Both the position numbers and the translations under genes were made by a program. Below the pieces are notes generated by a model. That model ran no database searches. It was not told the DNA's origin and worked only from the letters and a program-made list of their open reading frames with translations. 64,000 nucleotides of DNA from Bacteroidota bacterium (GTDB lineage Bacteria > Bacteroidota > Ignavibacteria > UBA10030), in NCBI GenBank assembly GCA_035286705.1, contig DATECW010000088.1:2853-66852 (forward strand). Direction: 5' to 3'. Shown in pieces: positions 1 through 31,989 of this stretch (position 1 is its first letter; each line of letters opens with the position of its first letter).

Positions 1-159
1 TTGATCGAATGAAATTGGAGAGTATCCCCGTGGATGCGACGAACTTCAAAACGTTTCAAGAAACACAGTACGTTCAAACATATCGACCAGCCTGATGGCT
101 CTCCACAGCGCCGTCGAGGAAGACCCACGCGTTACTACATACAAGGAGACATCGTGAGA

Positions 160-1086
160 ATGCGAATAGTCAAAATCCTGACAATAATACTTGCCGTCAG
201 CCTTGGAACATCCTTTTCAGTCGCCGGGGAAAAGATGGGAATCTTGATTCTTGCTCACGGTAGCAAGGATAAGAGATGGGAAGATGCAGTCCGGAGTGTC
301 GCAGAGCCAATCAAACAGCGTTATCCGCTCGAGATTGCTTTTGGAATGGCCGATCCGGCAACCATGCAACAGGCCATCGACAAGTTGGAAGCCGAGGGCG
401 TGACAAGAATTGTAGTGGTTCCTTTATTTATCTCAAGCTACAGCCCCATCATACGCCAGAACGAATACTTGCTCGGGTTAAGAAAGAAACTTGCCGATCC
501 TCCGATGATGATGCAGCACTCGTCAGACGGACATGAAAGCAATCATCTCTCACACGGGGGAGAACTACCTTCACTCAGGCCATTGAGAGTGAATGCCCAG
601 GTAATTCTCACAAAAGCGCTTGATGATAATCCCCTCGTTGCCGAGATCCTTGATGAGAGGATTAACGAACTCAGCAAGGATCCCCCGAATGAAACGGTCA
701 TCCTCGTGGCTCATGGGCCAAACGACGAAGAGGATAACAGGAATTGGCTTGGGACAATGGAGAGTATTGCAGATCGAATCTACGTGTCGCGATCTGAGGC
801 CCGAATGAGATTCAAGCACATCTTTTGCGTGACCGTGCGCGATGACGCTGAAAAGGCCGTCCATGACCAGGCAAGACAACACCTGCGCTCATTGGTTCGT
901 CAGTCTGGAAAGAGCGGAGATGTCATTGTGATTCCCGTGTTTGTTGCGCAGGGTGGCGTAGAATTGAAGATTGTGGAAAGACTAGAAGGGTTGAAGTATA
1001 GATGGAGCGGAAAAACCCTTCTGCCTCATGGTAACATTCAGCGTTTCATAGAGGAATCAGTTCAACATCTCCCTGGTCTTGATTGA
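160..1086 (+). CDS. cbiX: Signal-peptide-bearing sirohydrochlorin cobaltochelatase CbiX-like protein with two tandem CbiX domains; likely periplasmic
   Basis: ORF 34-1086. An internal Met at 160 is followed by a hydrophobic signal peptide (MRIVKILTIILAVSLGTSFSVAG). Two repeats of the class II chelatase motif (ILILAHGSKD... and VILVAHGPNDEED...). The start at 160 is inferred. Confidence 0.6.
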   Translation: MRIVKILTIILAVSLGTSFSVAGEKMGILILAHGSKDKRWEDAVRSVAEPIKQRYPLEIAFGMADPATMQQAIDKLEAEGVTRIVVVPLFISSYSPIIRQNEYLLGLRKKLADPPMMMQHSSDGHESNHLSHGGELPSLRPLRVNAQVILTKALDDNPLVAEILDERINELSKDPPNETVILVAHGPNDEEDNRNWLGTMESIADRIYVSRSEARMRFKHIFCVTVRDDAEKAVHDQARQHLRSLVRQSGKSGDVIVIPVFVAQGGVELKIVERLEGLKYRWSGKTLLPHGNIQRFIEESVQHLPGLD

Positions 1087-1163
1087 GGACTGAAGCACTC
1101 GCACCGCTGAAAAATCGGTATTTGGGGCGGCAAAGCGAATTTGCCATATGTTCCCCTAGGATC

Positions 1164-1589
1164 TCAATGCTTGTGGCCGTGAAAGTTGGGTTTCACTTTT
1201 TCTTTCGTCACGCCTGGAATGTCCTTACCCTCTCCAAGCTGCCATCCTGCATAGCAATCGGAACAAATACCTTTTCCCTCTCTCAAGTCCTTGTTGCAGG
1301 TGCAGCTCTGATGGTCCAGCGCGCATCGGTCACACGGCGCCTTTATGCAGCAGTTATAATACATCTCCTCTTTCGCTTCAGCAAGAAGCTCTTTTGCTTT
1401 CTGAACTTTCTCCTTCGCCGTGAGGCTGTCCGATTGTTTCTGAGACTTCGATTGAATGTTCTGCTGATCTGCCGCCGGTTTCGCAGTTTCCTGTTTCCCG
1501 TGGCCGGCATGCTTTTCCTGCGCAGTTGTCGTCGCGGAAAAAGCGACCGCTGCAATGACAATCAAACAAGCAATGATGATGCGCTGCAT
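1164..1589 (-). CDS. Secreted Cys-rich hypothetical protein with a His-rich C-terminus (HGHKH); possible metal binding
   Basis: N-terminal signal peptide. A Lys/Gln-rich linker, then a 12-Cys module (YYNCCIKAPCDRCALDHQSCTCNKDL...CSDCYAGW). No family recognised. Confidence 0.45.
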   Translation of the reverse strand: MQRIIIACLIVIAAVAFSATTTAQEKHAGHGKQETAKPAADQQNIQSKSQKQSDSLTAKEKVQKAKELLAEAKEEMYYNCCIKAPCDRCALDHQSCTCNKDLREGKGICSDCYAGWQLGEGKDIPGVTKEKVKPNFHGHKH

Positions 1590-1668
1590 AGCTCCTCCTT
1601 CAAGGTATTATTGGTTTGTGAACGGCGTGAATTCTCTTGTTTTTTCGTCGCTTCATGAGGCGACGATT

Positions 1669-2436
1669 TCAGCGCGTCAGTCTGTAAATCGCTACGTTTG
1701 TCCACAGACTGTTAAGGCGACCGGCAGCAAGTTGAGAGAGTCGAATATGCGCCAACAGTACCGGATGCTGAGGATCAACCGACACTTGCCCCAGACCCTG
1801 TTTGTCCGTTCTCACAACGGTCGTGTTCCGGTTCGTTATCACGCGAACCGGAGCATTGGAGACTGCCACACCTTCATAGAGCAACTGGAACTGAATGGTC
1901 GCCCGATCCTGCCCGGTATCCTTCCACGATTTCACCACTATCTCCAACGGCAATCCGAGCACTGAATCCTGCGGCGTATGAGAATCCGTTGCGACAACGA
2001 TCTTCATAATGCGGCTGTACGTTTCCCTGAATTCCTCAACGTGAGGCGTGAGGTAGTGTGACGCCTCTCTCTTTGTCAGTCCGATCTCTTCTCGTAGATA
2101 CTGTTCAGCCAGATCTCCTTTGAACGTGATCTCCCGCTGCTTCACACCCGTTGCAACGATCATGGTTGGCTCGGGAGGAAGCGAACCCAACAAGGTCGAA
2201 TCCGACGGGTCGCCTGCAAGGGCAATGGAGACGCCGGCGGGTAAATAGGCACGCGGGTCAACGAAGCGGTCAACACCTTTGATGGGCTCTCCATGCGGAA
2301 AATGCTCCGCAACAAGCGCAGAGATCGTGATCCGCGTCTTATCCTTGTTCCATTTCGCTGCGAGCCAGGCATCATGGGCATGAGCGGAAAGTGTGACAAG
2401 AACCATCACCACGACAGCACCGGAGACACGTTTCAT
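1669..2436 (-). CDS. Periplasmic DUF4198/COG5266 (CbiK-like) putative metal-binding protein
   Basis: Signal peptide ends ...LSAHA, with mature N-terminal His (HDAWL...) as in DUF4198 proteins. Size about 255 aa. Family assignment is from memory, not a search. Confidence 0.45.
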   Translation of the reverse strand: MKRVSGAVVVMVLVTLSAHAHDAWLAAKWNKDKTRITISALVAEHFPHGEPIKGVDRFVDPRAYLPAGVSIALAGDPSDSTLLGSLPPEPTMIVATGVKQREITFKGDLAEQYLREEIGLTKREASHYLTPHVEEFRETYSRIMKIVVATDSHTPQDSVLGLPLEIVVKSWKDTGQDRATIQFQLLYEGVAVSNAPVRVITNRNTTVVRTDKQGLGQVSVDPQHPVLLAHIRLSQLAAGRLNSLWTNVAIYRLTR

Positions 2437-2484
2437 GAAACCTCCCTTTCTAATGGTCCGACGAGTTTCTTTTCTTCCAAGAAC

Positions 2485-3216
2485 CTATTGCGCAACAGCC
2501 AGATGACGTTCTGTGTGTACTGACACATCATCGCTGAGCCTTCCATCTCTCAGGTAAATACATCGTTTTGCAAATCGAAGGTTTTCCGGATTGTGAGTTA
2601 CCATGATGATCGTGTGCCCTTCGGAATTCAGGCGTTGAAGAATCTTCATGATTTCATCGCTCGTCCCGGTATCCAGGTTCCCTGTCGGTTCGTCAGCAAG
2701 AACAATCGGCGGCTGATTCACAAGTCCACGCGCAATCGCAACCCGCTGCTGCTCCCCCCCGCTCAGCTCATCCGGAAGCCGAAATGCTTTTGAGCCCAAA
2801 CCGACATTTTCGAGAATCGCTTTTGCCATGATCTCTTGCTCATCGTTGTTGCGACCTGTGATGACCAATGGGATCATGACGTTCTCGAGAATGGTCAAAT
2901 ACGGCAACAATTGAAAGGACTGAAACACGAAGCCCAGATACTCACGGCGAAAATCCGCCCTGCGTTCGTCGCTCAACGAATACACATCAATGCCATCCAC
3001 AATGACCGACCCCTCAGACGGATGATTCAATCCACCCAGAATAGACAGGAGCGTGCTTTTACCGGAGCCTGACGGGCCCATGACCGCGACGAATTCTCCC
3101 TGAGCGATTTCAACCGAAACTCCGTCCAGCGCAGGGACGCACTCTTTACCGGTGTTATATGTTTTTTTCAATTGCTGAATCTGGACAAGGCTCATATTCT
3201 TCGTTCCATTGTTCAC
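2485..3216 (-). CDS. ABC transporter ATP-binding protein (MacB/LolD-type)
   Basis: Walker A GPSGSGKST, signature LSGGEQQRVAIARGL and Walker B ILADEPTGNLD. Confidence 0.9.
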   Translation of the reverse strand: MNNGTKNMSLVQIQQLKKTYNTGKECVPALDGVSVEIAQGEFVAVMGPSGSGKSTLLSILGGLNHPSEGSVIVDGIDVYSLSDERRADFRREYLGFVFQSFQLLPYLTILENVMIPLVITGRNNDEQEIMAKAILENVGLGSKAFRLPDELSGGEQQRVAIARGLVNQPPIVLADEPTGNLDTGTSDEIMKILQRLNSEGHTIIMVTHNPENLRFAKRCIYLRDGRLSDDVSVHTERHLAVAQ

Positions 3217-3229
3217 AAATTAAGAATGC

Positions 3230-4390
3230 CTACAATGCCTTTAGGGCGACCGTCGGATCGAGCCGCGACGCCTTATATGCAGGGTAGATACTTGAAACCA
3301 GTCCCACGGAAACAGCGAGCATTATCGAAAATGCAAACAATGCATAATCGGCTGACCAGCCGGCCGTCCCATTCACTGTCATCAATGGAGTTACCAACTG
3401 TGCAGCACCTGCACCGATGAAATATCCGCTCACCCCCGACAGAAAGCTCGTGAGAAATGCCTCCGTGAGAATGATCTTCATGACATGGGTTTGGCGGAAC
3501 CCGATGGCGCGGAAGATACCGATCTCCCTTGTTCGTTCATTCACGGACGCCATCATATTCGTGATAACAATAAGAGCTGCCACGAGGAGGACCACCCCGG
3601 AGATCCCATACGAGAAATGCTCAAACCGGTGCATCGCCTCCATTTTTGATTCAATCGTCTGACGAATGGCCACCACCTTCGCCCCGGGCAATTTCTCCGA
3701 TGTCTGGCGCACAATCTCCTCGATGGGACAGTCGTAACAGAGAGCCGCGACTTCGACGAGGCTCAATTCATCCGGTTTGCCGAACAATCGCTGGGCTTCC
3801 GCAAGATCAATGAATACAACGCCATCGTCTTGCGAACCGGTTGGTTCGAGGACCCCCGCAACGGTAAACGATTCTCCTTGGATCTCGAAAGACTGGTTCA
3901 AGTCGAGCCCGAGCGACTTCTTCGCGTCTGCTCCAATGATCGCCTGATCCTTCGTTGCCGGTCTCCGTCCAACCAACTTCCACCATTTCTTCAGTTGCAG
4001 TTCTTGATCGAACTCGACACCGACAACGAGGACGGTTCGGTCTATCACCTCGGTTATATTGAGAAGCTTCGGAGCGATGATCCTAATATTCTTGCTGTTC
4101 TCGATCGTGAGAATCTCCTGCGCGTCTTTTGTACGAAGCTGCTTCACATCCAAAGCAACGCCAGAGACCGCCATTCCACCGTAGTTCAGCGAGAGGTCAT
4201 CAGATTTTGGAGTGATGAGAATATTCGCTCCAAACTCGTCTAATTTGTTGGCAATATCTGCATTCATGATCCTGGCCACCGTAATGAGTGTGACAACCGT
4301 ACTGACGGCAATGGTTAGTCCAAGAACAAGAAAGAGCATCTTGGACTTTCGCCGTCGAAGATTGTTGAGCGAGATGTTGTAGAGTTTCAT
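3230..4390 (-). CDS. ABC transporter permease, FtsX/MacB family
   Basis: N-terminal TM helix, large periplasmic domain, three C-terminal TM helices. Size and topology fit FtsX-like permeases. Adjacent to the ABC ATPase. Confidence 0.8.
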   Translation of the reverse strand: MKLYNISLNNLRRRKSKMLFLVLGLTIAVSTVVTLITVARIMNADIANKLDEFGANILITPKSDDLSLNYGGMAVSGVALDVKQLRTKDAQEILTIENSKNIRIIAPKLLNITEVIDRTVLVVGVEFDQELQLKKWWKLVGRRPATKDQAIIGADAKKSLGLDLNQSFEIQGESFTVAGVLEPTGSQDDGVVFIDLAEAQRLFGKPDELSLVEVAALCYDCPIEEIVRQTSEKLPGAKVVAIRQTIESKMEAMHRFEHFSYGISGVVLLVAALIVITNMMASVNERTREIGIFRAIGFRQTHVMKIILTEAFLTSFLSGVSGYFIGAGAAQLVTPLMTVNGTAGWSADYALFAFSIMLAVSVGLVSSIYPAYKASRLDPTVALKAL

Positions 4391-4458
4391 TGTAATCTTT
4401 GATTGTTCGTTTTCTGCATCCCGCTGTTCTTGGGCGGGAACGATAGGCGACTATCGAC

Positions 4459-5133
4459 TTAGATTCGCCTCTGCCACCGGACGACCAATTGCTCGTCGAT
4501 CTGAATTTCGTTCCCAGCGACGGTATTGGGGAGGGCGTCCGGCGGGTACTTCCCGCATGAACCACTCACCGGCTCGAGATCGTTCAACTCCCATGTCGAG
4601 CCGCAAGAGTTGCAAACCAGCTTGTCGCCCTTCATGTGGAACCGAGTCGAATTGCACGGTTCACACATGCTCACGGCTGTCACCACCTTTCCCTCGCCGG
4701 TGATATAGGCAAGAAGGGGTATATTGTTCAGTTCGGTGGAATACTGAAAGGCAATGAACTTCCGTTCCCTGAGCAGGTCGAGTGGTAGTATGATCTTTCG
4801 ATTCTCGACTTTTGCAGGGACATCGATCATCTGCTCTCCCGTCACACTGTAGCTCGCAGGCGAGACAATTGCTGGAGACGCCTTGATGACTGGGTTACCG
4901 CTCTCTGGAAGGTTGAAATATACCCAGCCGCCGAACACGGCAACAACTCCGAGCGCGATGAATATTTTCAACCGATTCTTGCCCGACGGTCTATGGTTTG
5001 CCACAACTCGGTCGTGTTTTTCCTGCCAAAGAGGTTTTGCCGGTTTCTTCCCGGTCAGTGAAGCTCCGCATCCGATGCAGAAGTTCGAATCAGGCTCGAG
5101 AGCCTTTCCACATTCTGAACAAAAGTTTGCCAT
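4459..5133 (-). CDS. Zinc-ribbon / TM / Cys-rich membrane protein (DUF2318-like)
   Basis: N-terminal CxxC...CxxC zinc ribbon (CSECG...CIGCG), one TM helix, C-terminal CEPCN...CNSCGS...CGKY motifs. Resembles the DUF2318 membrane proteins that accompany FtsX-type ABC transporters. Confidence 0.5.
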   Translation of the reverse strand: MANFCSECGKALEPDSNFCIGCGASLTGKKPAKPLWQEKHDRVVANHRPSGKNRLKIFIALGVVAVFGGWVYFNLPESGNPVIKASPAIVSPASYSVTGEQMIDVPAKVENRKIILPLDLLRERKFIAFQYSTELNNIPLLAYITGEGKVVTAVSMCEPCNSTRFHMKGDKLVCNSCGSTWELNDLEPVSGSCGKYPPDALPNTVAGNEIQIDEQLVVRWQRRI

Positions 5134-5168
5134 GATGTTGCTCCTGTTGTGATTCGGTTTCTGTTGAT

Positions 5169-7361
5169 TTACAATCTTGCACTTACACCTATGACCGGAA
5201 GAAATGGAATGATTGTTAGTTGTTCTTTCGAAGAATACGTCTCATCCCACATGTAGTGCACGATGTTCTTTTGATTGTAGGCATTCAGTACTTCCAAATA
5301 GACATCGAGATCGAACGATGCAAATTGAAAATGTCGAGTTACACGAACGTCGAGTCGATTATATGCCGAATAACGATCCGAGTTATGGATGCCGGGAATG
5401 GGAAACCAGCGTTCTTCGTTCGGGTCGTACCAGGACGAAGCGACCGGTGTGTATGGCCTTCCGCTGCCATAGCGGAAGCGCAAACCGGCTTGCCAATGTT
5501 CCGAGAATTTGTAGTTTGAAACGACACTTATCAAGTGTGGCCGGTCAAAATCGAAAACGTGCAGATCGCTGTTTGTTCCTTCTCTCCGCTTTGACAGAGA
5601 ATAGGTGTACGACAACCAGCCGAAGAATCCTTGACCATTCTTGAGTTGAACGTAAGACTCTACGCCGCGTGAGTATCCGTCGCCATTATTGGAAAGATTC
5701 CAAAGCGAATCGATTGTAATGAGTCGAGAAAGATTCTTGTTGTACAGCTCAAGGCTCACCACCATTGCGTCACCCACCTCGTGCCTGATGCCGATGCCAT
5801 AGCTTTCAGCACGCTTGGATTTGAGATTGCTGTTGATATCCAGCTCAAACGGTCGTGGTGACTGATAATACCATCCGTAGCCTGCCGAAAGACTCATGTG
5901 TTCATTCCAGGCATAGGAAAGATTGAATCGCGGGGAGAACGTACTCTCCTTGCTTTTCGCAATGTAGTCATATCGAACACCAACGCTCGCACTTAGCGAT
6001 GGGGAGATGGTCCATCTGTCATCAACATAAAGTGAAGGCTTCATGGATGTTCCGGTTCCCCGAAGTTTTAGCTCGTTGAAGTTCAAGGCTATTTCGAGCG
6101 GGACATCAATGGTGACATCTTCCTTCTCTCGACCGAGCCATCCGCCGATATGCAGCTCATTTGCGGGAAAGATGACGGTGAAATCCTGCTTGAGCGTCCA
6201 TTCTTGAATGTTGTATGCTTCTACGGCATTACGCGGTTGAACGGAAGAGCTTTTCGCTTGACTCCATGAGACGATAAAATCCGAAAGAAAGAACTCGCCG
6301 AGCAGAGAGCGAAGGCGGCCTGTTACAACACCGCTTTTGTTTTCCCAGGAAAAATCTCCTGTGTAGTTGGGACGGTCAAAAAAACCGTACATCCGTTCTC
6401 TGGAGTAAAGCCCGGAGAAGGTCAATTTATGGTCTTGTGAAAGGTTGAAATCCACTTTTGAGTTAATATCAAAGAAGTACGGCAGCACGCTGTAATCGCT
6501 GGCAAGATCAGTATATTTGAGCAGCACGTCGAAATAACTCCGCCGGGCAGAGAGCATTGCTGTGCCATTGGCAAATGCGAGCGGCACTTCGACTGTTCCA
6601 CTCGCATCCGACATGCTGATCGATGCCTCGCCATTCAGCTTCTCCATATTGCCGGTCCGATTCTCAATCAACAACACCGAAGAGAGCCTATCACCATAGC
6701 GGGCAGGGAATCCCGCCGCATAGAACTCGACTTTCTCGACGAGTCGGGAGTTGAAAATGCTCCAGTAGCCGCCGCCCATCATATCGAAATGGAATGGGTT
6801 TCGGATTGTTGCGCCGTCGTACAGCACGAGATTTTCATCCGGACTTCCGCCGCGCACGTAGAGCTTTGAATTGTCACCATCGGATGCGATTCCTGGGAGT
6901 GTCTGAACCACCCAGAAGATATCCTGGGCGGAACCTGGTGTATTGACCACCATTTGTTTTCCGAGACGCGCTGTGATGCCGCTTGCATCGTAGCGCTCGG
7001 GTTTCGGTGTAATGACGATTTCTTCCGTTTCCAAAGCTGTTTCTTCCAGCAGCACGTCAATAACATTTTCCCCCTGTTTGATTCGAACGTTTGAAACGAG
7101 CTTCTCCTTGAAACCGATCATCGAAAATCTCACGGTATACGTTCCAATCGGGATATTTTGAATAGAGTAACGTCCCTGTGAATTTGTTGCAGATCCAATG
7201 TTCGTGCCCTTGAGAATAACGTTGACCAGCTCAAGCGGCTGCTTTGATCCCTTGTCCAGCACAACTCCTTCAAGACTGCCCGTTTGCGCTTGTGCGGGGA
7301 GACAAACGACTGTGAGTGCAAACAATAAGACCATTAGAGACGATTTCATTTTGTGTCTCAT
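5169..7361 (-). CDS. TonB-dependent outer-membrane receptor with N-terminal CarboxypepD_reg-like domain
   Basis: Signal peptide, then a CarboxypepD_reg-like region (GVVLD...QPLELVNVILKGTNIGSATNSQGRYSIQNIPIGTYTV), plug and about 22-strand barrel length. The start may be at the MKSSL Met (7349). Confidence 0.8.
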   Translation of the reverse strand: MRHKMKSSLMVLLFALTVVCLPAQAQTGSLEGVVLDKGSKQPLELVNVILKGTNIGSATNSQGRYSIQNIPIGTYTVRFSMIGFKEKLVSNVRIKQGENVIDVLLEETALETEEIVITPKPERYDASGITARLGKQMVVNTPGSAQDIFWVVQTLPGIASDGDNSKLYVRGGSPDENLVLYDGATIRNPFHFDMMGGGYWSIFNSRLVEKVEFYAAGFPARYGDRLSSVLLIENRTGNMEKLNGEASISMSDASGTVEVPLAFANGTAMLSARRSYFDVLLKYTDLASDYSVLPYFFDINSKVDFNLSQDHKLTFSGLYSRERMYGFFDRPNYTGDFSWENKSGVVTGRLRSLLGEFFLSDFIVSWSQAKSSSVQPRNAVEAYNIQEWTLKQDFTVIFPANELHIGGWLGREKEDVTIDVPLEIALNFNELKLRGTGTSMKPSLYVDDRWTISPSLSASVGVRYDYIAKSKESTFSPRFNLSYAWNEHMSLSAGYGWYYQSPRPFELDINSNLKSKRAESYGIGIRHEVGDAMVVSLELYNKNLSRLITIDSLWNLSNNGDGYSRGVESYVQLKNGQGFFGWLSYTYSLSKRREGTNSDLHVFDFDRPHLISVVSNYKFSEHWQAGLRFRYGSGRPYTPVASSWYDPNEERWFPIPGIHNSDRYSAYNRLDVRVTRHFQFASFDLDVYLEVLNAYNQKNIVHYMWDETYSSKEQLTIIPFLPVIGVSARL

Positions 7362-7365
7362 TGAC

Positions 7366-8295
7366 TTAGAATTTGCGCCCTCCGTACTTTTTTTCTACCT
7401 CATCGACTAGCTGCACGATAGTGTATGTGCCCTCGCGAATCTTGTCATCAACAAAAGTCTTGACCTCCTGTGCTCCGCGTGGATGAGCACAACTGCAGTC
7501 TTTCAGTTCATCAATGCCGCATTGACCGCACGGGCACGTGAAGCGTGAAAAGACTTCCACTCGATCCGCAATGGTTGCGGGCTTGGAGGTGTTGGAGATT
7601 CTTGAAGCTAAGGCGAACATCTCGCTTACCGGCTGTTTGGGTACCGTGAGCTTTGTCGATTGCCCTGTCGTGTGGGCAAGAGAATCGTAGCGAGAGGAAA
7701 GCGCGGACTTCATCCACCCGAACGTGTTATTGACGGCAAGTATGATTTCCTGCGATGATTTTCCGGATTGAAGGTTCGTCCTGATGAATTGCCGTTCCTG
7801 TATGGCGGTGTTGCACCGGCAGGTATCGAGAGGCTGTTCCCCACACGCTCCGCACGAACAAATGAATTGTGAGGCAATGTCCAGCACTTTCCTCTCCAAG
7901 GCCGCATCGCTGCTCTTCAACTCCACGAGAGAGGCTTGTGGTTCCGGTTTCCCCCGCTCACCACGCTCGTAGAGTACAACAATGAAGAGAATCCCGGCAG
8001 TCAACAAGATAAGACCGACTACTCCGGGACTCCGGCGCCATTTCGTATCGACTCGTCGATCCTTTTTCTTGTATCGCGCTTGTGCTGGAGCCAGTTGTCG
8101 AGGGTGATGAGCTCGTTCTTGCCGAATTTCGGAACCGCAATTTGCGCAGAACTTCGCCCCTGGAATGCTTTCAAAGCTGCATGTAGGGCATGGCCTCAAA
8201 TCATTTGCCTTCTCTGTTTTCCCAACCTCAATACCACAGTTCGCACAAAACTTTGTATTATCCCTGTTTTCCGCACCACATTCGTTGCACTTCAT
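7366..8295 (-). CDS. Membrane-anchored protein with an N-terminal double zinc ribbon and two C-terminal PCYCGC-like Cys modules
   Basis: MKCNECGAE...FCANCG and CPTCSF...FCANCG are two zinc ribbons. One TM helix follows. Then two repeats: FICSCGACGEQPLDTCRCN and FTCPCGQCGIDELKDCSCAH. Confidence 0.55.
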   Translation of the reverse strand: MKCNECGAENRDNTKFCANCGIEVGKTEKANDLRPCPTCSFESIPGAKFCANCGSEIRQERAHHPRQLAPAQARYKKKDRRVDTKWRRSPGVVGLILLTAGILFIVVLYERGERGKPEPQASLVELKSSDAALERKVLDIASQFICSCGACGEQPLDTCRCNTAIQERQFIRTNLQSGKSSQEIILAVNNTFGWMKSALSSRYDSLAHTTGQSTKLTVPKQPVSEMFALASRISNTSKPATIADRVEVFSRFTCPCGQCGIDELKDCSCAHPRGAQEVKTFVDDKIREGTYTIVQLVDEVEKKYGGRKF

Positions 8296-8315
8296 TTCAA
8301 AATCCTTTCATTGAA

Positions 8316-8666
8316 TCACTTCCTCGCTGTGAGTTTCTCAGCCTCTAATCCATCTCCAATCTGTCCTGAGACAAGTTCAACTTCAGCTCTCGTCTCATCA
8401 ACAAGACGCATAACCTTAACAATGCCGAGTTCTTGCTTGTGGGGCAAAGGGGCACTGGCGCCATGATTGTGTCCGCCGCTTGAGGTTGAAGGCTGATGAT
8501 ATTGGTAGAGAATAAAAAGGTCTCCCACTTTTACATCGGCTCCCTTGGAGAATTCGAGGTAGATCTCTTTCGGGAGGCCATCGACGACTTGAATCCGGTA
8601 CGATGTGCTGCATGAAGAAACAAATAAAGAAAGGACGGATAGAGTACCATATGCAAGATATTTCAT
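8316..8666 (-). CDS. Small lipoprotein with a His-rich insert; paralog of the 10324-10710 product
   Basis: Lipobox LFVSSC. VKVGDLFILYQY and IVKVMRLVDE...EVELVSGQIG blocks are shared with the 10324-10710 product. Carries a GGHNHGASAPLPH insert. Confidence 0.5.
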   Translation of the reverse strand: MKYLAYGTLSVLSLFVSSCSTSYRIQVVDGLPKEIYLEFSKGADVKVGDLFILYQYHQPSTSSGGHNHGASAPLPHKQELGIVKVMRLVDETRAEVELVSGQIGDGLEAEKLTARK

Positions 8667-8680
8667 ATTTGTTCCCTCGT

Positions 8681-9337
8681 CTAGAACATGCTTCCCCCAC
8701 GTGCAGCCCAGATGACGATCATCACAGCCCCCATGACGATGCCGCCAATGATGAGATAGTCCGACATTCCTCCCCTCCGGTCCATCATCATGCTGCCGTG
8801 GCCATCTCCTGATGCTGCCGGGTGCCTTGTCGTTTCGATGATAACCTCAGGCCGTAATCGTCGCTCGCCCAGCGCGCCAATGTGAAACATGGTCTTGTGC
8901 TCACTCGCCTGGGAAGGTGTAAAGCTGACGACATAGACTCCTGGTTGCGCGCTTTCCTCGACTTCCTGGTCAAAATTCATATCATGCTCCGGCGACAGAA
9001 GAACGCGCGTGGAGTCGCCCTCGCCATACATCGCGCTCATATGGCGTTCTTCTGGCGCATGCAAGAACGATGTGTGGAAGGAAACCTTCGCGTTCGAGAC
9101 GGGTTGGCCGGTTGTCTTATCCACGAGCTTGAGGGTAAAAACCGCCTTTTCACCCACTTGAAGTGGTGGGAAGAGTGCAATTGCCTTCACATCTCCGAAT
9201 TCGACTTCCTTTTCAAGAGCTGATTCAAGTGCCATCTGGTGGCTCCCCGAATCCATTCTTCCGTGAGTTCCCATCATCCCGACACCCATGCAGGATACGA
9301 GGAACAGACTTAGAGTAAATGCGACCATGCTTTTCAT
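8681..9337 (-). CDS. Secreted protein with C-terminal TM anchor; Ig-like (YtkA/FixH-like) putative metal-binding domain
   Basis: Signal peptide. TLKLVDKTTGQPVSNAKVSF block is similar to TLTDEKSSQPVEKAKVTIEI in the 12037-12879 product. His/Met-rich tail (DGHGSMMMDRRGGM) and a final TM helix. Confidence 0.45.
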   Translation of the reverse strand: MKSMVAFTLSLFLVSCMGVGMMGTHGRMDSGSHQMALESALEKEVEFGDVKAIALFPPLQVGEKAVFTLKLVDKTTGQPVSNAKVSFHTSFLHAPEERHMSAMYGEGDSTRVLLSPEHDMNFDQEVEESAQPGVYVVSFTPSQASEHKTMFHIGALGERRLRPEVIIETTRHPAASGDGHGSMMMDRRGGMSDYLIIGGIVMGAVMIVIWAARGGSMF

Positions 9338-9367
9338 TGTTTTTGATCCTTTTGTGAATTCCGTGTG

Positions 9368-9676
9368 TCAGGCTCCGACATATTGTTTCGGACTGCTCTC
9401 AAACTGTTCCCGGCAGGCGTGCGAGCAAAAATAGAACCGGATCCCTTTGTACTCAACGAAATATGGGGGACTGTTCTTATCCACATTCATTCCACAAACG
9501 AGGTCGATGGCTGTTTCACCATCATTTGTCCCGGATGTGAAGTAGCCTGGATCCTTGATGAAGGTCAACATGCACTCTGCGCTGCAGAAGTAGTATGTCT
9601 TGTCGAGAAATGTCTTTACGACCGTCCTCGAATCATCTTCTTCGATATCCATTCCACAGACGATGTCCCGTATCAT
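9368..9676 (-). CDS. Tandem YHS/TRASH-domain metal-binding protein
   Basis: Two copies of VCGM...(Y)YFCS..C (VCGMDIEEDD...YYFCSAEC and VCGMNVDKNS...FYFCSHAC). The start is chosen at the Met just before the first VCGM. Confidence 0.7.
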   Translation of the reverse strand: MIRDIVCGMDIEEDDSRTVVKTFLDKTYYFCSAECMLTFIKDPGYFTSGTNDGETAIDLVCGMNVDKNSPPYFVEYKGIRFYFCSHACREQFESSPKQYVGA

Positions 9677-9686
9677 GGCTTCCCTT

Positions 9687-10313
9687 TCATTCACTGCCGT
9701 AGAAGTACCGTGCCACGTCATACCCCAGCCTGCTGATCAGCCCCTGCAGAAGTTGTCCATCGGTGTAAAACGTCCCCTGCTGCTCGCCGCCGCTGTAATA
9801 GTAGGTCGTCGTCGAGAAAGTGGATTCCACGTGCTTTGCCCAAACGACGGTCGAGGAATCGCAATCGACCAGCCTGACTGTGACGCTGCCTGATGCGATT
9901 CGGTTTGAATATGAGTTTGTGTATTTCACTTCGCCAACCGACGTAAACAGGTTTCCTGTCAGGAGATATCGACATTGAAGACCTTGCTTCAATCCATGAA
10001 TGGTATGCATATCGGGAATGCCGTTTACGTTGAGATTGTTCGCAAGCAGATAATTGCGTACAACCGTTGCAGGAATAATTTTCATATGCGCGGAGTGTTC
10101 AAGAAGGTTGACAATAACCTCATCGGACACCTGTCCACCCAAATTCGAAAGAACGCTTTCGGTTTCGAACGGCATGATCGCAATCGCCTCGCCGGGCTTG
10201 ATGATGACAGAGGGACTGATCTGTACCGTCCTCTTCGTAACCGAGCCTGTTCCGCAACCAGTCAGAAAGAACATAGCCAGGAACACCGTTGAAAGGTAAA
10301 TGATTGTTTTCAT
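9687..10313 (-). CDS. Lipoprotein, function unknown (LpoB/LPP20-like size class)
   Basis: MKTIIYLSTVFLAMFFLTGC lipoprotein signal. The rest is soluble, with no recognised motif. Start moved to the internal Met. Confidence 0.45.
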   Translation of the reverse strand: MKTIIYLSTVFLAMFFLTGCGTGSVTKRTVQISPSVIIKPGEAIAIMPFETESVLSNLGGQVSDEVIVNLLEHSAHMKIIPATVVRNYLLANNLNVNGIPDMHTIHGLKQGLQCRYLLTGNLFTSVGEVKYTNSYSNRIASGSVTVRLVDCDSSTVVWAKHVESTFSTTTYYYSGGEQQGTFYTDGQLLQGLISRLGYDVARYFYGSE

Positions 10314-10323
10314 AGCACTCTCC

Positions 10324-10710
10324 TTATCGAAGCCGTTGTTTCTCAACGATGTCGTTCGACTGAAGCTCACCGCTGATGAGTGTCACCGCTGCGAAGTGTC
10401 CATCGAATAATTCGACGACTTTCGCTTCGCCGACCTTGATTTTCCGATAACTCGGTCTCCCGTTACGCGCCGTCGGAACATCTCGTTGATATTCAGAAAG
10501 CCACCGCGTATTATCCACTTTTACTCGGTACACGAACATGATATCGCCGACCTGTATTCCGTCGTCAGTTCCAATGCAGATGTGGACCCTGTCTTCGAAT
10601 TTCATCAGTACGGATCCACGCATTGTTTGATGGCTTGTAGAACACCCGCCAAACGCACTCACAATCAAGAGCATACTAATCGCTATCGGGATGAATCCTG
10701 TCGTTTTCAT
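10324..10710 (-). CDS. Small lipoprotein, paralog of the 8316-8666 product
   Basis: Lipobox AFGGC. IQVGDIMFVYRV and IKVGEAKVVELFDGHFAAVTLISGEL blocks align with the paralog. Confidence 0.5.
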   Translation of the reverse strand: MKTTGFIPIAISMLLIVSAFGGCSTSHQTMRGSVLMKFEDRVHICIGTDDGIQVGDIMFVYRVKVDNTRWLSEYQRDVPTARNGRPSYRKIKVGEAKVVELFDGHFAAVTLISGELQSNDIVEKQRLR

Positions 10711-11741
10711 TTGACCACTCCCGTATCAATTATGTTCGCTTCTTCGACGAGCTTCCGGATAGGGCGATTAACCTTTCGCTCCAACATGAGCCATAGCAAT
10801 GTAGTGAGGACAATCGCAACACCGGCCAGTAGAAGAAGCGAAGTCCTCACTTCTTGTGCCGACCGGTTCATCTCTCTTTGCTGCTGAGCGAGAAGTTCTC
10901 TTGTGTCGCTCCCAAACGAGTCAAGTTGGTCAAGAAGCCTGAGTCTAAGGCTGTCAAGTGATGACATGATGAGATTGTGCGAGACAAATAGTTCCGCTCT
11001 CTCTTGCTGATGATTCCGCTTCCCTTCATTTGACAGCCTCTCCACAACGTCGAACATGCCACCTGCGATCAGATGGAAACGATGCTCAAGATTTGTAAGC
11101 ACGTCGAAAGTCGACTTGGACACAGCCTGCGATTCCTCGAGATCTGAAACCGCATCGATGACCTTCACACGGGCTCTCTTGAAATCGCTAAGGGCATCAG
11201 TCGCCTCTCCACGGTGGAATCGTTCTACCGCCAACATTTCCTCAAGCACGCCGCTTTCCATCGCACTCGACGCCTCTGAAAGAAGTCGCACGGTTTCCAC
11301 TGTTCTTCTTGCGTCGAGTTGAATCTCGTTTGTCCGAAGCCCAATGAACAGTGCGACACCGAGGACACTGATTGTCATGAGCAAAAATGCCGACCGAATT
11401 CTCCTGTGGCTGCCACGCAGCATGAAGTTGATGAGTTGCTTGATCCGTGATTCCTCCAGTTTGCTTGTCCGCTTGCCCAGCGGGATTTGACTTGGAAGCC
11501 CTGGATCGTATTCCTCTACAAAGAAACAATGATCAGCTACAGCCCCTATCGTGCCAACGCGATGTACGCTCTCACGAACAAGTTCCACTTCATCGTCGCG
11601 CGAAAGCAACTCCATTCGGGAGATTTTGGATGATGGTGAAAAGTATTCGGTGACCATGATTTCTGCAATTCCCAGGGCCTCGAGCTCTTCAACGAGCCAG
11701 TGGACTCGCACCGTGTTGATGTATGCGGTGATCTTTTTCAT
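10707..11741 (-). CDS. P-II-like (GlnB/PII-NG, DUF3240-type) N-terminal domain fused to a two-TM coiled-coil membrane module
   Basis: N-terminus MKKITAYINTVRVHWLVEELEALGIAEIMVTEYF matches the GlnB fold start (MKKIEAIIKP...GI.GMTVTEV). TM helices at about 120-140 and about 300-320 flank a roughly 160-aa helical segment. No output domain. Confidence 0.5.
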   Translation of the reverse strand: MKKITAYINTVRVHWLVEELEALGIAEIMVTEYFSPSSKISRMELLSRDDEVELVRESVHRVGTIGAVADHCFFVEEYDPGLPSQIPLGKRTSKLEESRIKQLINFMLRGSHRRIRSAFLLMTISVLGVALFIGLRTNEIQLDARRTVETVRLLSEASSAMESGVLEEMLAVERFHRGEATDALSDFKRARVKVIDAVSDLEESQAVSKSTFDVLTNLEHRFHLIAGGMFDVVERLSNEGKRNHQQERAELFVSHNLIMSSLDSLRLRLLDQLDSFGSDTRELLAQQQREMNRSAQEVRTSLLLLAGVAIVLTTLLWLMLERKVNRPIRKLVEEANIIDTGVVK

Positions 11742-11820
11742 GTTTCCTTTGCCTGGTCGCTAGCTCCGAACGAGAGACCCATCGTTTGTCGAGCTAGCTC
11801 CATGATGATCGTTTCTCTGG

Positions 11821-12015
11821 TCATTCCTCCACGATCAGATCGTTTGCCGACGTATTGTCGTCCTTTCCCATTGCCTTTAGATATTTTGCAGGCTTTTCAA
11901 CAAACGAATGAAGACATCCCGGTGCACAAAAAAAATACGTTTGACCATCATAGAGAGCACTGCCCGCTGCAAATTCCTCATCAATCATCATTCCACAGAC
12001 AGGGTCTTTTTTCAT
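11821..12015 (-). CDS. Single YHS/TRASH-domain protein
   Basis: PVCGMMIDEE...TYFFCAPGC motif. 64 aa. Confidence 0.7.
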   Translation of the reverse strand: MKKDPVCGMMIDEEFAAGSALYDGQTYFFCAPGCLHSFVEKPAKYLKAMGKDDNTSANDLIVEE

Positions 12016-12036
12016 AACGGCATCTCCACCGAGGGA

Positions 12037-12879: not shown

Positions 12880-12893
12880 ACTGTTCTCCTCTG

Positions 12894-13232
12894 TTACTGT
12901 TGATTGTGTTGGTGGTTTGATTTTTCCTTCTTCGTGTCTTCAAGCATTTCCAAAACAATGCGGAGCATCCGCTTGTCATCTATCATGGCTCTGCACATTT
13001 CCGTCATCTTCATCGTATCGCCGACTGCGTAATAGATCATCTTCTTCATCATCGTTGCGTGCATCTGATTGTTAGAGGCAATATGGTCCATCAGCAAGTC
13101 CATCATCACTGAATCTTTCATCATCTCCATCATTTGCATGTGTTTGTGCTGTCCCAAAGCGAACGATGAGAGGGCAGTCAGGAGAGCCACAAGGAGGATC
13201 AAAGGTCTTATTTTCATAGTTTTTTTCTTCAT
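12894..13232 (-). CDS. Secreted Met-rich helical protein (SilE/PcoE-like metal sponge candidate)
   Basis: Signal peptide, about 25% Met in the mature part (HMQMMEMMKDSVMMDLLMDH...), His-rich C-terminus (NHQHNQQ). Located directly downstream of cusA. Confidence 0.45.
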   Translation of the reverse strand: MKKKTMKIRPLILLVALLTALSSFALGQHKHMQMMEMMKDSVMMDLLMDHIASNNQMHATMMKKMIYYAVGDTMKMTEMCRAMIDDKRMLRIVLEMLEDTKKEKSNHQHNQQ

Positions 13233-16388: not shown

Positions 16389-16429
16389 GTCTTAAATCCT
16401 TTGTCAGGTTCTATTCGTCAAGAAGAACA

Positions 16430-18130: not shown

Positions 18131-18152
18131 TACTTGGCTCCTTGAATATCCG

Positions 18153-30524: not shown

Positions 30525-30539
30525 TCAGAATTGTCCTCC

Positions 30540-30929: not shown

Positions 30930-30937
30930 GGCGTTCT

Positions 30938-31786: not shown

Positions 31787-31834
31787 CGAGATTTGAGAAG
31801 TGGATATTTACAGGTGCAGCCTACCGCATTCAAT

Positions 31835-31980: not shown

Positions 31981-31989
31981 TCTTTGAAA

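What the first reader, a model, noticed from the sequence alone, without database searches (positions are those of the whole stretch)
160..7361. Putative metal/heme uptake module: TonB receptor + DUF2318-like Zn-ribbon protein + FtsX/ABC + DUF4198 + periplasmic CbiX
The gene set recalls the Campylobacter cj1660-1663 accessory set of the P19/Ftr1 iron system (a DUF2318 membrane protein plus a MacB-type ABC). A TonB-dependent receptor is upstream. A DUF4198/CbiK(COG5266)-like periplasmic protein with N-terminal His is downstream. A CbiX chelatase with a signal peptide on the opposite strand recalls the heme-binding periplasmic CbiK-P of Desulfovibrio. An uptake module embedded in an efflux island is unexpected. 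It may import a metal cofactor (Co/Ni/Fe/heme) while toxic metals are exported.
Basis: partly seen in the sequence, partly recalled or inferred. Interest (0 to 1): 0.7.

Follow-up and report, generated by a model that had tools for sequence, protein, structure and literature searches.

The report
Fet-like ABC module in copper island
The genes are real, but they are not a metal or haem import set: their conserved core is a four-gene membrane module, related to the unexplained accessory genes of the Campylobacter iron system, that here and in dozens of other bacteria sits inside copper/silver-resistance gene clusters with no iron importer nearby.

Summary
Every gene and family assignment in the finding holds: an exported CbiX, DUF4198 with an N-terminal His, a MacB-type FtsX permease with its ATPase, a Zn-ribbon PF10080 (ex-DUF2318) protein and a TonB-dependent receptor.

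The five-gene "uptake module" does not survive phylogenetic profiling. In 80 loci from different species, the PF10080 gene is followed by FtsX in 78 and by the ATPase in 66-68. The receptor occurs in 9 loci, DUF4198 and CbiX in none, and FTR1 in none.

In the FCB-group loci, 29 of 31 with enough flank carry metal-resistance genes. The window genes form the tail of a roughly 18-kb same-strand cluster headed by cusCBA. Its RND pump is 54% identical to E. coli CusA and keeps the Met triad.

CbiX is convergent and belongs to a different operon. The PF10080 periplasmic domain models as a Rieske fold.

Best reading: an ATP-driven periplasmic thiol/metal-handling accessory of Cu(I)/Ag(I) resistance. 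The context is shown; the mechanism is inferred. It is a new variant of the Fet accessory set, uncoupled from FetMP.

The parts
7366..8295 (-). Bitopic membrane protein. It has a cytoplasmic double Zn ribbon (C3/C6/C17/C20 and C36/C39/C50/C53), one TM helix (91-109), and two periplasmic repeats, each with CxCGxC-x7-CxC (C146-C161 and C254-C269 plus H271) in a CcmH-like helical context.
   Evidence: Pfam: DZR 38 bits; CcmH 23.7 bits, just under the cut-off of 25. The cysteines are invariant in 21 homologues. hhalign places C148xxC151 on E. coli CcmH C43xxC46, E=0.006. There are 8 K/R before the TM and 3 after. The gene lies upstream of the PF10080 gene in 55-58 loci, including 31 of 31 FCB loci with at least 8 kb of flank.
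5169..7361 (-). TonB-dependent outer-membrane receptor: signal peptide, CarboxypepD_reg domain, plug, 22-strand-type barrel, and a TonB-box-like 'EEIVIT'. It is an optional member of the module.
   Evidence: Pfam. Present in 9 of 80 loci plus L007, always inserted between the DZR gene and the PF10080 gene. Its nearest solved relatives are only weakly similar (FepA/PfeA, E about 1e-8 over 80 residues).
4459..5133 (-). Bitopic membrane protein with a cytoplasmic Zn ribbon (C5/C8/C19/C22), one TM helix (57-75) and a periplasmic PF10080 (ex-DUF2318, 'FtrD-like') domain. The domain carries invariant C157xxC160, H166, C174xxC177 and C193 and has a predicted Rieske fold. Core member.
3230..4390 (-). 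MacB-type (type VII ABC) permease: TM1, a periplasmic MacB_PCD domain, then the FtsX TM2-4 bundle. Core member.
   Evidence: PF12704 60.7 bits and PF02687 82.3 bits. Follows the PF10080 gene in 78 of 80 loci.
2485..3216 (-). ABC ATPase of the LolD/MacB/FtsE type. Core member.
   Evidence: PF00005 119.6 bits. Best NCBIfam hits are LolD, MacB-NBD and FtsE, all below their equivalog cut-offs. Present in 66-68 of 80 loci; the misses are at contig ends.
1669..2436 (-). Periplasmic DUF4198 protein. Signal peptide cleavage after A20 exposes an invariant N-terminal His21. It is a lineage-specific addition to this operon.
   Evidence: PF10670 47.4 bits. H21/D22/W24 are invariant in 27 of 27 relatives. 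Model pLDDT 87.9. The top 9 PDB hits are Zcp (9MHI and related entries) and Ni-IsDUF4198 (9GCB). Absent from all 80 loci. Relatives lie in other copper islands.
1164..1589 (-). Small secreted protein: signal peptide, a K/Q-rich linker, a C-terminal 8-Cys domain (YNCCIKxPCDRCALDHQSCxC...CxDCYAGW) and an HGHKH tail. It is the last gene of the operon.
   Evidence: No Pfam family. Found downstream of the ATPase in 5 of 80 loci; three of those homologues carry an N-terminal HMBD heavy-metal-binding motif.
160..1086 (+). Exported two-domain CbiX-type chelatase-like protein. It is convergent to the operon and is not part of the module.
   Evidence: PF01903. Start and signal-like N-terminus are conserved. 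It belongs to a PIG-L/144-aa/CbiX unit next to xseAB-dxs. Absent from 80 of 80 loci.
8316..13217 (-). Run of small envelope proteins between cusA and the module: HMBD protein, two YHS proteins, a P-II-like/2-TM protein, three lipoproteins and a His/Met-rich YtkA-like lipoprotein. All lie on the same strand with gaps of 79 nt or less.
   Evidence: Many of these recur upstream of the module in FCB loci.
13236..19448 (-). cusC-, cusB- and cusA-like genes that head the cluster: OEP 18153-19448; MFP with HMBD and YHS domains 16430-18130; RND 13236-16388.
   Evidence: Pfam. The RND is 53.9% identical to E. coli CusA, with M573/M623/M672 and six of seven checked relay Met conserved (M755 is Ser).

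Best explanation
What is shown. Genes 1164-8295 (- strand) are the promoter-distal part of one roughly 18-kb, same-strand Cus-type Cu(I)/Ag(I) resistance cluster, headed by cusC-B-A at 19448-13236.

The conserved core is four genes:
1. A double-Zn-ribbon, single-TM protein with two periplasmic 5-Cys CcmH-like repeats.
2. A Zn-ribbon, single-TM protein whose periplasmic PF10080 domain has a Rieske fold and a CxxC-x13-CxxC-x15-C motif.
3. A MacB-type FtsX permease.
4. Its ATPase.

Genes 2-4 correspond to the DUF2318/FtsX/ABC accessory part of the Campylobacter FetMP-FetABCDEF iron system, but no FetM/Ftr1 gene was found (FetP/P19 was checked only in the Pfam-annotated loci).

What is inferred. 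The four proteins form one inner-membrane complex. As in MacB, LolCDE and FtsEX, ATP hydrolysis in the cytoplasm is transmitted mechanically to the periplasmic domain of the permease. Nothing is imported. That movement acts on the thiolate-rich periplasmic domains of the two bitopic partners, which capture thiophilic metal ions (Cu+/Ag+), or metal-blocked or oxidised cysteines. The metal is then released or handed on towards the Cus pump and the soluble carriers.

DUF4198 (N-terminal His) and the 8-Cys protein are periplasmic metal buffers added in this lineage. The TonB-dependent receptor is an optional outer-membrane partner of unknown substrate. CbiX is an unrelated neighbour.
For: - Gene order is conserved across 80 species loci: FtsX in 78, ATPase in 66-68, a Zn-ribbon partner in 58 of 68 informative loci.
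- Of 31 FCB loci with at least 8 kb upstream, 29 carry resistance hallmarks: RND 20, P-II 17, HMBD 13, P-type ATPase 7.
- Among 122 recurrent neighbour families, the commonest Pfam domains are HMA, YHS and HMBD. FTR1 and P19 are not among the 25 commonest families shown.
- The window RND is CusA-like and keeps the Met triad. Its MFP carries HMBD and YHS domains.
- Nineteen genes lie on one strand with gaps of 79 nt or less.
- The permease has MacB_PCD and FtsX domains. This family works by mechanotransmission, not import (PMC5985334, PMC12646458).
- No FTR1 in the window or in 83 loci.
- The cysteine motifs are invariant. Both partners are N-in/C-out by the positive-inside rule.
- Relatives of this DUF4198 and of the 8-Cys protein are tied to copper islands or to HMBD.
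- DUF4198 proteins are periplasmic metal buffers (PMC12663993, PMC12537917).
Against: - No expression, binding or genetic data exist for this module. The complex and the metal hand-off are pure inference.
- A TonB-dependent receptor inside the operon, in 9 species, is an import device and fits a detoxification role poorly.
- In Thermodesulfobacteriota the same trio lies among sulfur-assimilation genes, and only 2 of 13 informative loci have metal hallmarks. Copper may therefore not be the common denominator.
- In C. jejuni the homologous genes are needed for iron acquisition (PMC10783030).
- A Rieske fold suggests electron transfer rather than metal capture.
- No dedicated membrane-fusion protein links the ABC system to an outer-membrane duct.
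Confidence: 0.5

Rival explanations
1. Periplasmic thiol-redox or sulfur-supply machine. The ABC system, the Rieske-fold CxxC/CxxC domain and the CcmH-like protein (with a CcmF-like partner in some genomes) keep periplasmic cysteines reduced and metal-free under copper stress, for example the CxxCH sites of apocytochromes. Alternatively they deliver reductant or sulfur to build a metal-sulfur centre outside the cytoplasm. Copper islands, the Fet iron system and sulfur-assimilation operons would all recruit the same redox or sulfur service.
For: - A CcmF-like gene directly precedes the DZR/CcmH-like gene in 10-11 loci.
- hhalign aligns the DZR C148xxC151 on the redox-active CxxC of CcmH.
- The window's own ccm operon has a Cys-type CcmE and no CcmG or CcmH.
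- The PF10080 domain has a Rieske fold.
- The Fet cluster includes two thioredoxins, and its authors propose a redox-support role (PMC10783030).
- c-type cytochrome assembly is a main periplasmic target of copper (PMC4600104).
- In Thermodesulfobacteriota loci the trio sits among CysK, COG1900, MnmA, LarE-like, ThiI-like, Thi4 and ThiH-like genes.
- DsrC-like/PF10080 fusions exist.
Against: - CcmH similarity is below the Pfam cut-off (23.7 against 25 bits), and PDB hits are weak (E 0.07-0.25).
- There is no thioredoxin-fold, DsbD or CcdA gene in the module.
- A single TM helix cannot relay electrons by itself.
- The DsrC-like fusion lacks the active C-terminal Cys.
- There is no conserved twin-arginine motif for exporting a pre-assembled Fe-S domain.
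Confidence: 0.25
2. One reading: a nutrient-metal or haem uptake route. The receptor imports a chelated metal or tetrapyrrole. DUF4198 and the exported CbiX bind it in the periplasm. The PF10080/FtsX/ABC set assists entry, as it does for FetMP in Campylobacter.
For: - A TonB-dependent receptor lies in the operon.
- DUF4198 proteins bind Ni or Zn and are induced by metal limitation in other bacteria (PMC12537917, PMC12663993).
- fetABCD are required for growth at low iron (PMC10783030).
- One CbiX homologue lies in a TBDR-HmuY-CbiX-CbiX-cytochrome c/FTR1 cluster.
Against: - The receptor occurs in only 9 of 80 loci, and DUF4198 and CbiX in none.
- No inner-membrane importer or FTR1 is present.
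- MacB-type ABC systems do not import (PMC5985334).
- CbiX is convergent and in another operon.
- The context is Cus/YHS/HMBD in 29 of 31 FCB loci.
- Relatives of this DUF4198 sit in copper islands, not next to receptors or NikR.
Confidence: 0.12
3. Envelope sensor. The two Zn-ribbon-anchored proteins sense periplasmic metal through their Cys domains and signal through the cytoplasmic Zn ribbons. The ABC system acts as a flux sensor, as in BceAB-type modules.
For: The layout of a cytoplasmic Zn ribbon, one TM helix and an extracytoplasmic domain resembles membrane-anchored regulators. Histidine-kinase domains are among the recurrent neighbour families. A sigma-70 family gene lies 7 kb away in one locus.
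Against: No sigma factor, kinase or DNA-binding gene is adjacent in the window or in most loci. The Zn ribbon is absent from many PF10080 relatives of about 195 aa.
Confidence: 0.05

Closest known systems
FetMP-FetABCDEF (Cj1658-1665 / CJJ81176_1649-1656) iron uptake cluster of Campylobacter jejuni and uropathogenic E. coli
   Same: A periplasmic PF10080/DUF2318 domain with the same CxxC-x13-CxxC-x14/15-C motif. An adjacent FtsX-type permease and an ABC ATPase. YHS domains and thiol-active periplasmic proteins in the same cluster (PMC6083913, PMC10783030).
   Different: There is no FetM (Ftr1); FetP (P19) was not seen but was not searched for in the 80 loci. The DUF2318 protein is bitopic with a cytoplasmic Zn ribbon, not an 8-TM protein with a fused YHS domain. 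There is one permease gene instead of two. A CcmH-like tandem-repeat protein takes the place of the thioredoxins FetE/F. The context is Cus-type resistance, not Fur-type iron starvation. The 2018 paper stated that DUF2318 genes almost always map to Fet clusters; these 80 or more loci are exceptions.
Type VII ABC systems (MacAB-TolC, LolCDE, FtsEX-EnvC, YbbAP-TesA)
   Same: MacB_PCD and FtsX architecture with a separate LolD/FtsE-like ATPase. The expected mode of action is mechanotransmission to a periplasmic partner (PMC5985334, PMC12646458).
   Different: All NCBIfam equivalog scores are far below their cut-offs. There is no MacA-type adaptor. The partners are two Cys-rich bitopic proteins not seen in any characterised system.
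CusCFBA Cu(I)/Ag(I) efflux system of E. coli
   Same: The cluster is headed by OEP, MFP and an RND that is 54% identical to CusA and keeps the three-Met site.
   Different: No CusF was recognised. The MFP carries HMBD and YHS domains. About 15 extra envelope genes, including the module studied here, follow cusA.
NosDFY-NosL machinery for the copper centres of N2O reductase
   Same: A functional analogy only: an ABC complex that imports nothing and uses ATP to drive Cu(I), and probably sulfur, hand-over between periplasmic proteins (own knowledge; NosL is described in PMC6530538).
   Different: A different ABC fold (ABC-2, not MacB type). No NosD, NosL or NosZ homologues were seen. No shared ancestry is claimed.
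DUF4198 proteins Zcp (N. gonorrhoeae) and IsDUF4198 (Ideonella sakaiensis)
   Same: Same Pfam family and fold, a signal peptide, and an N-terminal His after cleavage as in the Ni-binding IsDUF4198.
   Different: Only 12-18% identity. H21 is the only invariant His, so the three-His Zn site of Zcp is probably not conserved. The genomic context is copper resistance rather than Zur or NikR regulons.
CcmH/NrfF thiol-disulfide proteins and the Scs copper-tolerance thioredoxins
   Same: A periplasmic CxxC at the start of a short helical domain, aligned on CcmH C43xxC46. A CcmF-like neighbour in some genomes. Thiol proteins that confer copper tolerance have a precedent in Scs (own knowledge).
   Different: The score is below the family threshold. 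The motif is extended to five Cys and duplicated. A cytoplasmic double Zn ribbon is attached. There is no thioredoxin fold.

Membership tests
PF10080 (DUF2318, 'FtrD-like') proteins | Profile match above the Pfam gathering score | tested here: met
   79 bits against a cut-off of 26.3, residues 122-222.
PF10080 (DUF2318, 'FtrD-like') proteins | Conserved CxxC-x13-CxxC-x14/15-C motif (PMC6083913) | tested here: met
   C157xxC160-x13-C174xxC177-x15-C193, invariant in 32 sequences.
Fet accessory set (FetA + FetBCD) | DUF2318 gene adjacent to FtsX-type permease(s) and an ABC ATPase | tested here: met
   Window order is PF10080, FtsX, ATPase. Conserved in 78 and in 66-68 of 80 loci.
Fet accessory set (FetA + FetBCD) | Linkage to the iron permease FetM (FTR1) and to FetP (P19) | tested here: not met
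   tblastn with an FTR1 protein finds no permease-domain hit in the window or in 83 loci. FTR1 and P19 are not among the 25 commonest Pfam families shown for 122 neighbour clusters, and neither appears in the Pfam-annotated loci. P19 was not searched for directly in the 80 loci.
Fet accessory set (FetA + FetBCD) | FetA architecture: polytopic (8 TM) with periplasmic DUF2318 and YHS domains | tested here: not met
   One hydrophobic segment (57-75), an N-terminal Zn ribbon and no YHS domain in this protein. YHS is found in separate genes of the island.
Type VII (MacB-family) ABC transporters | Permease with an N-terminal TM, a periplasmic MacB_PCD domain and a C-terminal FtsX bundle, plus a cognate ATPase | tested here: met
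   PF12704 at 21-210, PF02687 at 263-379, PF00005 in the next gene.
Type VII (MacB-family) ABC transporters | Dedicated MacA-type adaptor for a tripartite pump | tested here: not met
   The only MFP in the cluster is the CusB-like gene at 16430-18130. None lies next to the ABC genes in the window or in the loci.
DUF4198 (PF10670) periplasmic metal-binding proteins | Profile match, family fold, signal peptide | tested here: met
   47.4 bits against 34. The top 9 PDB structural hits are Zcp and IsDUF4198, TM 0.57-0.67. A hydrophobic N-terminus with A-x-A precedes H21. No SignalP run was possible.
DUF4198 (PF10670) periplasmic metal-binding proteins | Metal ligands: N-terminal His (IsDUF4198) or three His (Zcp H29/H31/H142) | tested here: inconclusive
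   The N-terminal His is invariant in 27 of 27 relatives, but no other His is invariant. A residue-level structural superposition could not be made.
TonB-dependent transporters | Plug domain and beta-barrel; TonB box | tested here: met
   PF07715 and PF00593. A TonB-box-like 'EEIVIT' precedes the plug (sequence). The substrate is unknown.
CbiX class II chelatases | CbiX profile and conserved His of the two half-domains | tested here: met
   PF01903 50.6 bits. H75 and H227 (numbering from the ORF starting at 34) are invariant in 28 sequences.
CbiX class II chelatases | Cytoplasmic location in a sirohaem, cobalamin or F430 pathway | tested here: not met
   A signal-like N-terminus is conserved in all 27 homologues. 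The neighbours are PIG-L/144-aa/xseAB here, and HmuY/TBDR/FTR1 or unrelated genes elsewhere. NCBIfam CfbA scores 54 bits against a cut-off of 120.
CcmH/NrfF | Profile match and redox-active CxxC | tested here: inconclusive
   Pfam 23.7 bits, below the cut-off of 25. PDB CcmH hits have E 0.07-0.25. hhalign E=0.006 with the CxxC aligned.
CusA-type Cu(I)/Ag(I) RND pumps | Three-methionine binding site and Met relay pairs | tested here: met
   53.9% identity to E. coli CusA. M573, M623, M672, M410, M501, M403, M486, M391 and M1009 are conserved; M755 is Ser.

The most novel reading that the evidence does not exclude
The PF10080/FtsX/ATPase trio may be a general ATP-driven device that works on metal-sulfur or thiolate chemistry outside the cytoplasm. 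For example, it could supply sulfur or reductant to assemble or recycle a metal centre on a Sec-exported Rieske-fold domain that has no Tat signal. The same service would then have been recruited independently by three kinds of operon: Fe uptake (FetMP), Cu/Ag detoxification (Cus islands in FCB bacteria) and sulfur-assimilation operons (Thermodesulfobacteriota). If so, the long-unexplained FetABCD function would not be iron-specific.
Probability: 0.15. Interest if true: 0.8.

Novelty: new variant of a known kind. Interest (0 to 1): 0.5.

Why it matters
What the DUF2318/FtsX/ABC accessory genes of the FetMP (P19/Ftr1) iron system do has remained unknown (PMC10783030). They have been treated as specific to that system (PMC6083913).

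Here the same trio occurs without FetM in at least 80 species. It has a conserved fourth partner and sits inside CusCBA-type copper/silver islands in FCB bacteria, and among sulfur-assimilation genes in Thermodesulfobacteriota.

This argues that its job is a general periplasmic thiol, metal or redox operation rather than iron transport. It also supplies a simpler, bitopic form of the protein for biochemistry, a predicted Rieske fold for the domain, and cultured carriers for genetics.

For annotating metal-resistance islands, it identifies a recurrent four-gene unit that is currently labelled only 'Fe-S-containing protein' or 'hypothetical'.

Tried and rejected
- PDB sequence searches with the PF10080 profile and with DUF4198 found no relative beyond Zn-ribbon noise. 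The folds had to be obtained from models.
- tblastn of the PF10080 protein against 72,556 plasmids found nothing.
- The promoter and terminator scan of 1-9000 gave counts equal to shuffled sequence, so it does not help to define the operon.
- The 251-aa protein between FtsX and the ATPase in the 65%-identical relative L007 was tested as a diverged DUF4198. It is unrelated.
- The AlphaFold-database fold library was unavailable.
- The DsrC-like/PF10080 fusion was followed up, but its contig is only 1.6 kb and the DsrC-like part lacks the active Cys.
- The DZR protein could not be modelled with an alignment, because locus-derived sequences are not accepted for structure prediction.
- I considered that the DZR protein is simply the housekeeping CcmH missing from the window's ccm operon. 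I did not adopt this, because the protein travels with the ABC trio in Cus islands, and the CcmF-like neighbour, where present, lies outside a ccmABCDE operon.
- I considered a recent horizontal insertion. GC content is uniform across the window at 0.48-0.55.

Full report
**Observation.**
- CbiX at 160-1086 (+): PF01903.
- DUF4198 at 1669-2436 (-): PF10670, 47.4 bits against a cut-off of 34.
- An ABC ATPase at 2485-3216 (-).
- A MacB_PCD+FtsX permease at 3230-4390 (-).
- A Zn-ribbon protein with PF10080 ('FtrD-like', the former DUF2318; 79 bits against 26.3) at 4459-5133 (-).
- A TonB-dependent receptor with CarboxypepD_reg, plug and barrel domains at 5169-7361 (-).

Two genes of the same strand run were not mentioned. 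One is a secreted protein with an 8-Cys domain at 1164-1589. The other, immediately outside the given range, is a 309-aa protein at 7366-8295 with an N-terminal double Zn ribbon and two Cys-rich repeats that score just under the CcmH threshold (23.7 against 25 bits).

Neither was met.
- The CbiX ORF is open from position 34. In an alignment with 27 homologues, however, all start at the Met that corresponds to position 160. All carry a hydrophobic signal-like segment before the conserved GVLILAHG, and an AAGGAG lies 11 nt upstream. CbiX is therefore most probably exported.
- DUF4198 is confirmed by profile, by model (pLDDT 87.9) and by fold. The nine best PDB matches are the only two characterised DUF4198 proteins, Zcp and Ni-bound IsDUF4198. 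Its mature N-terminus is an invariant His in 27 of 27 relatives.

**Source and cluster structure.** Identical proteins occur on metagenome contigs, and the relatives are Ignavibacteria, Bacteroidota and Calditrichia, that is, the FCB group. From the outer-membrane factor gene at 19448 down to 1164, nineteen genes lie on the minus strand with gaps of 79 nt or less.

The cluster starts with OEP, then an MFP carrying HMBD and YHS domains, then an RND pump. The pump is 53.9% identical to E. coli CusA and keeps the M573/M623/M672 site and six of seven checked relay methionines. The island is therefore Cu(I)/Ag(I)-type.

Between cusA and the genes of the finding lie HMBD, YHS, P-II-like and His/Met-rich lipoprotein genes.

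Beyond 19.5 kb the window is housekeeping: trehalose synthesis, c-di-AMP cyclase and a ccm operon. To the left of CbiX the contigs continue with a 144-aa gene and PIG-L on the CbiX strand, then xseAB and dxs. CbiX is therefore convergent to the operon, belongs to another transcription unit and marks the island border.

**Phylogenetic profiling.** A degenerate-pattern scan of one genome per species returned 80 loci that encode a relative of the PF10080 protein. I ran tblastn with all window proteins and clustered all ORFs of these loci.

| Gene | Loci with it (of 80 unless stated) |
|---|---|
| FtsX permease | 78 |
| ATPase | 66-68 (misses at contig ends) |
| Upstream Zn-ribbon-anchored periplasmic protein | 58 of 68 loci with enough upstream sequence |
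| TonB-dependent receptor | 9, always between the DZR and PF10080 genes |
| 8-Cys protein | 5 |
| DUF4198 | 0 |
| CbiX | 0 |

The upstream partner is the DZR/CcmH-like type in all 31 FCB loci with at least 8 kb of flank. In Thermodesulfobacteriota it is mostly a Zn-ribbon/SurA_N type.

An FTR1 query found no permease hit in the window or in 83 loci. Among 122 neighbour families that recur in at least two loci, the commonest Pfam domains are HMA, YHS and HMBD. Of the 31 informative FCB loci, 29 carry resistance hallmarks: RND 20, P-II 17, HMBD 13, CcmF-like 10, P-type ATPase 7. Three Pfam-annotated contexts at 50-65% identity show the same picture, including mer genes and P-type ATPases.

The conserved unit is thus a four-gene core that regularly resides in metal-resistance islands. 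It is not a five-gene uptake set that landed in one by chance.

**The lineage-specific additions point the same way.** The DUF4198 subfamily has only 28 detectable relatives. The three whose context could be read lie in copper islands. Two are directly downstream of an HMBD protein. Around them are a multicopper oxidase, an OEP, a CDF, MerT, CsoR, a cupredoxin, and RND and YHS genes. One lies about 8 kb from the module on the same contig as the closest module relative.

Homologues of the 8-Cys protein carry an N-terminal HMBD motif in three of five cases.

Published work describes DUF4198 proteins as periplasmic metal-buffering proteins: Zn in Zcp, and Ni through the N-terminal His in IsDUF4198 (PMC12663993, PMC12537917). 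In this subfamily H21 is the only invariant His, so the ligand set differs.

**Anatomy of the core.**
- *No Tat motif.* No twin-arginine motif is conserved before the helix. I infer that the domain is exported unfolded and acquires its metal outside the cytoplasm.
- *DZR protein.* It has eight invariant Cys in two cytoplasmic Zn ribbons, one helix with eight K/R before it, and two periplasmic repeats with CxCGxC-x7-CxC. A profile comparison aligns C148xxC151 with the redox-active C43xxC46 of E. coli CcmH (E=0.006). Membership of the CcmH family remains inconclusive.
- *Permease.* It is of the MacB type. All characterised members export substrates or transmit mechanical force to periplasmic partners, and none imports (PMC5985334, PMC12646458).
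- *Family size.* An exhaustive HMM search found 102 clusters (at 50% identity) with E of 1e-30 or better. Many are about 195 aa and lack the Zn ribbon.

**Mechanism.** What is shown: the gene content, the conserved order, the Cus context, the folds and the topology signals.

What is inferred: the four proteins form one inner-membrane complex. ATP hydrolysis drives the periplasmic domain of the permease. That motion works on the thiolate-rich domains of the two bitopic partners to capture and release Cu(I)/Ag(I), or to clear metal-blocked cysteines, and feeds the Cus pump and the soluble carriers. I give this 0.5.

The strongest rival (0.25) is a thiol-redox or sulfur-supply role. It is supported by several points:
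- the Rieske fold;
- the CcmH-like CxxC;
- a CcmF-like gene directly upstream of the DZR gene in 10-11 loci;
- the thioredoxins and redox model of the Fet cluster (PMC10783030);
- the known sensitivity of cytochrome c assembly to periplasmic copper (PMC4600104);
- the Thermodesulfobacteriota loci, where the trio is embedded in an Rrf2-CysK-COG1900-MnmA-LarE-like-ThiI-like-Thi4-ThiH-like string.

A sensor role gets 0.05.

**Comparison with known systems.** The trio is homologous to the FetA (DUF2318 part) and FetBCD accessory genes. It fails two defining features of that system: linkage to FetM (FetP was not tested directly), and the polytopic FetA architecture with a fused YHS domain. It works within a Cus-type island, and its permease belongs to the type VII ABC family without matching any characterised member. 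The NosDFY-NosL machinery is a functional analogy only.

I therefore rate it a new variant of a known kind. The 2018 statement that DUF2318 genes almost always map to Fet clusters (PMC6083913) does not hold for this large clade.

**Limits.** There are no expression or biochemical data. No SignalP or Tat predictor was available. P19 was not searched for directly in the 80 loci. The DZR protein could not be modelled. The 10-kb flanks truncate the contexts. The role of the receptor remains unexplained.

Noticed in passing
window 160-1086; L091 2171-8954: The window CbiX belongs to a widespread family of about 300-340 aa, two-domain CbiX proteins with a signal-like N-terminus and a variable His-rich insert. 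They occur in Bacteroidota, Ignavibacteria, Balneolaceae and some Proteobacteria. In a Melioribacteraceae genome the homologue sits in a cluster TBDR - HmuY - CbiX (203 aa) - CbiX (326 aa) - cytochrome c/FTR1 fusion. That looks like periplasmic haem capture, iron removal and iron import. Other homologues are solitary.
   Followed up: partly
window 28167-33327 (-): The ccm operon is of the variant System I type: CcmA, CcmB, CcmC, CcmD (45 aa), CcmE with a Cys-type 'CPSKY' motif, and CcmF. No CcmG or CcmH is present. The only CcmH-like sequence in the window is the DZR protein at 7366-8295 in the copper island.
   Followed up: partly
L010, L021, L024, L031, L033, L035, L037-L039, L042, L043 (about -3.2 kb from the PF10080 gene): A CcmF-like gene (Cytochrom_C_asm + CcmF_C, about 750 aa, 33% identical to the window's CcmF) directly precedes the DZR/CcmH-like gene. 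It is not part of a ccmABCDE operon.
   Followed up: partly
L064, L073-L075, L083, L084, L087-L089: In about ten Thermodesulfobacteriota loci the PF10080/FtsX/ATPase trio is embedded in one same-strand string of sulfur-incorporating enzymes: Rrf2, CysK, COG1900, NIL/ferredoxin, MnmA, LarE-like, ThiI-like, then PF10080, Thi4, DUF6775, ThiH/BioB-like radical SAM, then FtsX and the ATPase. Only 2 of 13 informative loci in this group carry metal-resistance genes.
   Followed up: partly
P0348, P0394, P0368 (proteins): Other PF10080 architectures exist. One has an N-terminal DsrC-like domain, then a TM helix, then PF10080; the DsrC-like part lacks the C-terminal active Cys. Another has two tandem PF10080 domains. 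Many relatives of about 195 aa lack the Zn ribbon.
   Followed up: partly
L057, L062, L063, L065, L066, L069, L078, L080, L082, L085, L086, L090: There is a minimal five-gene form of the module in Thermodesulfobacteriota and relatives: a small protein with a CDMDHCNPYMPKCPLCP motif, a Zn-ribbon/TM/SurA_N protein ending in a CCxxxC motif, PF10080, FtsX and the ATPase.
   Followed up: partly
window 10707-11741 (-); P-II genes in L007, L009 and about 20 other loci: A 344-aa protein with a P-II-like N-terminal domain and two TM helices (no Pfam hit) lies in the island. Stand-alone P-II genes recur next to the RND genes in 20-22 loci.
   Followed up: no
window 8681-9337 (-): A lipoprotein with 18 Met and 10 His, a weak YtkA-like beta-sandwich match and a C-terminal TM helix. 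It recurs upstream of the module in 12-14 loci and is a likely Cu(I)/Ag(I) binder.
   Followed up: no
L007 11904-13356: In the closest distinct relative (65% identity), a UbiE-type methyltransferase and a 251-aa protein with no Pfam match are inserted between the FtsX and ATPase genes. Methyltransferase domains are among the recurrent neighbour families.
   Followed up: no
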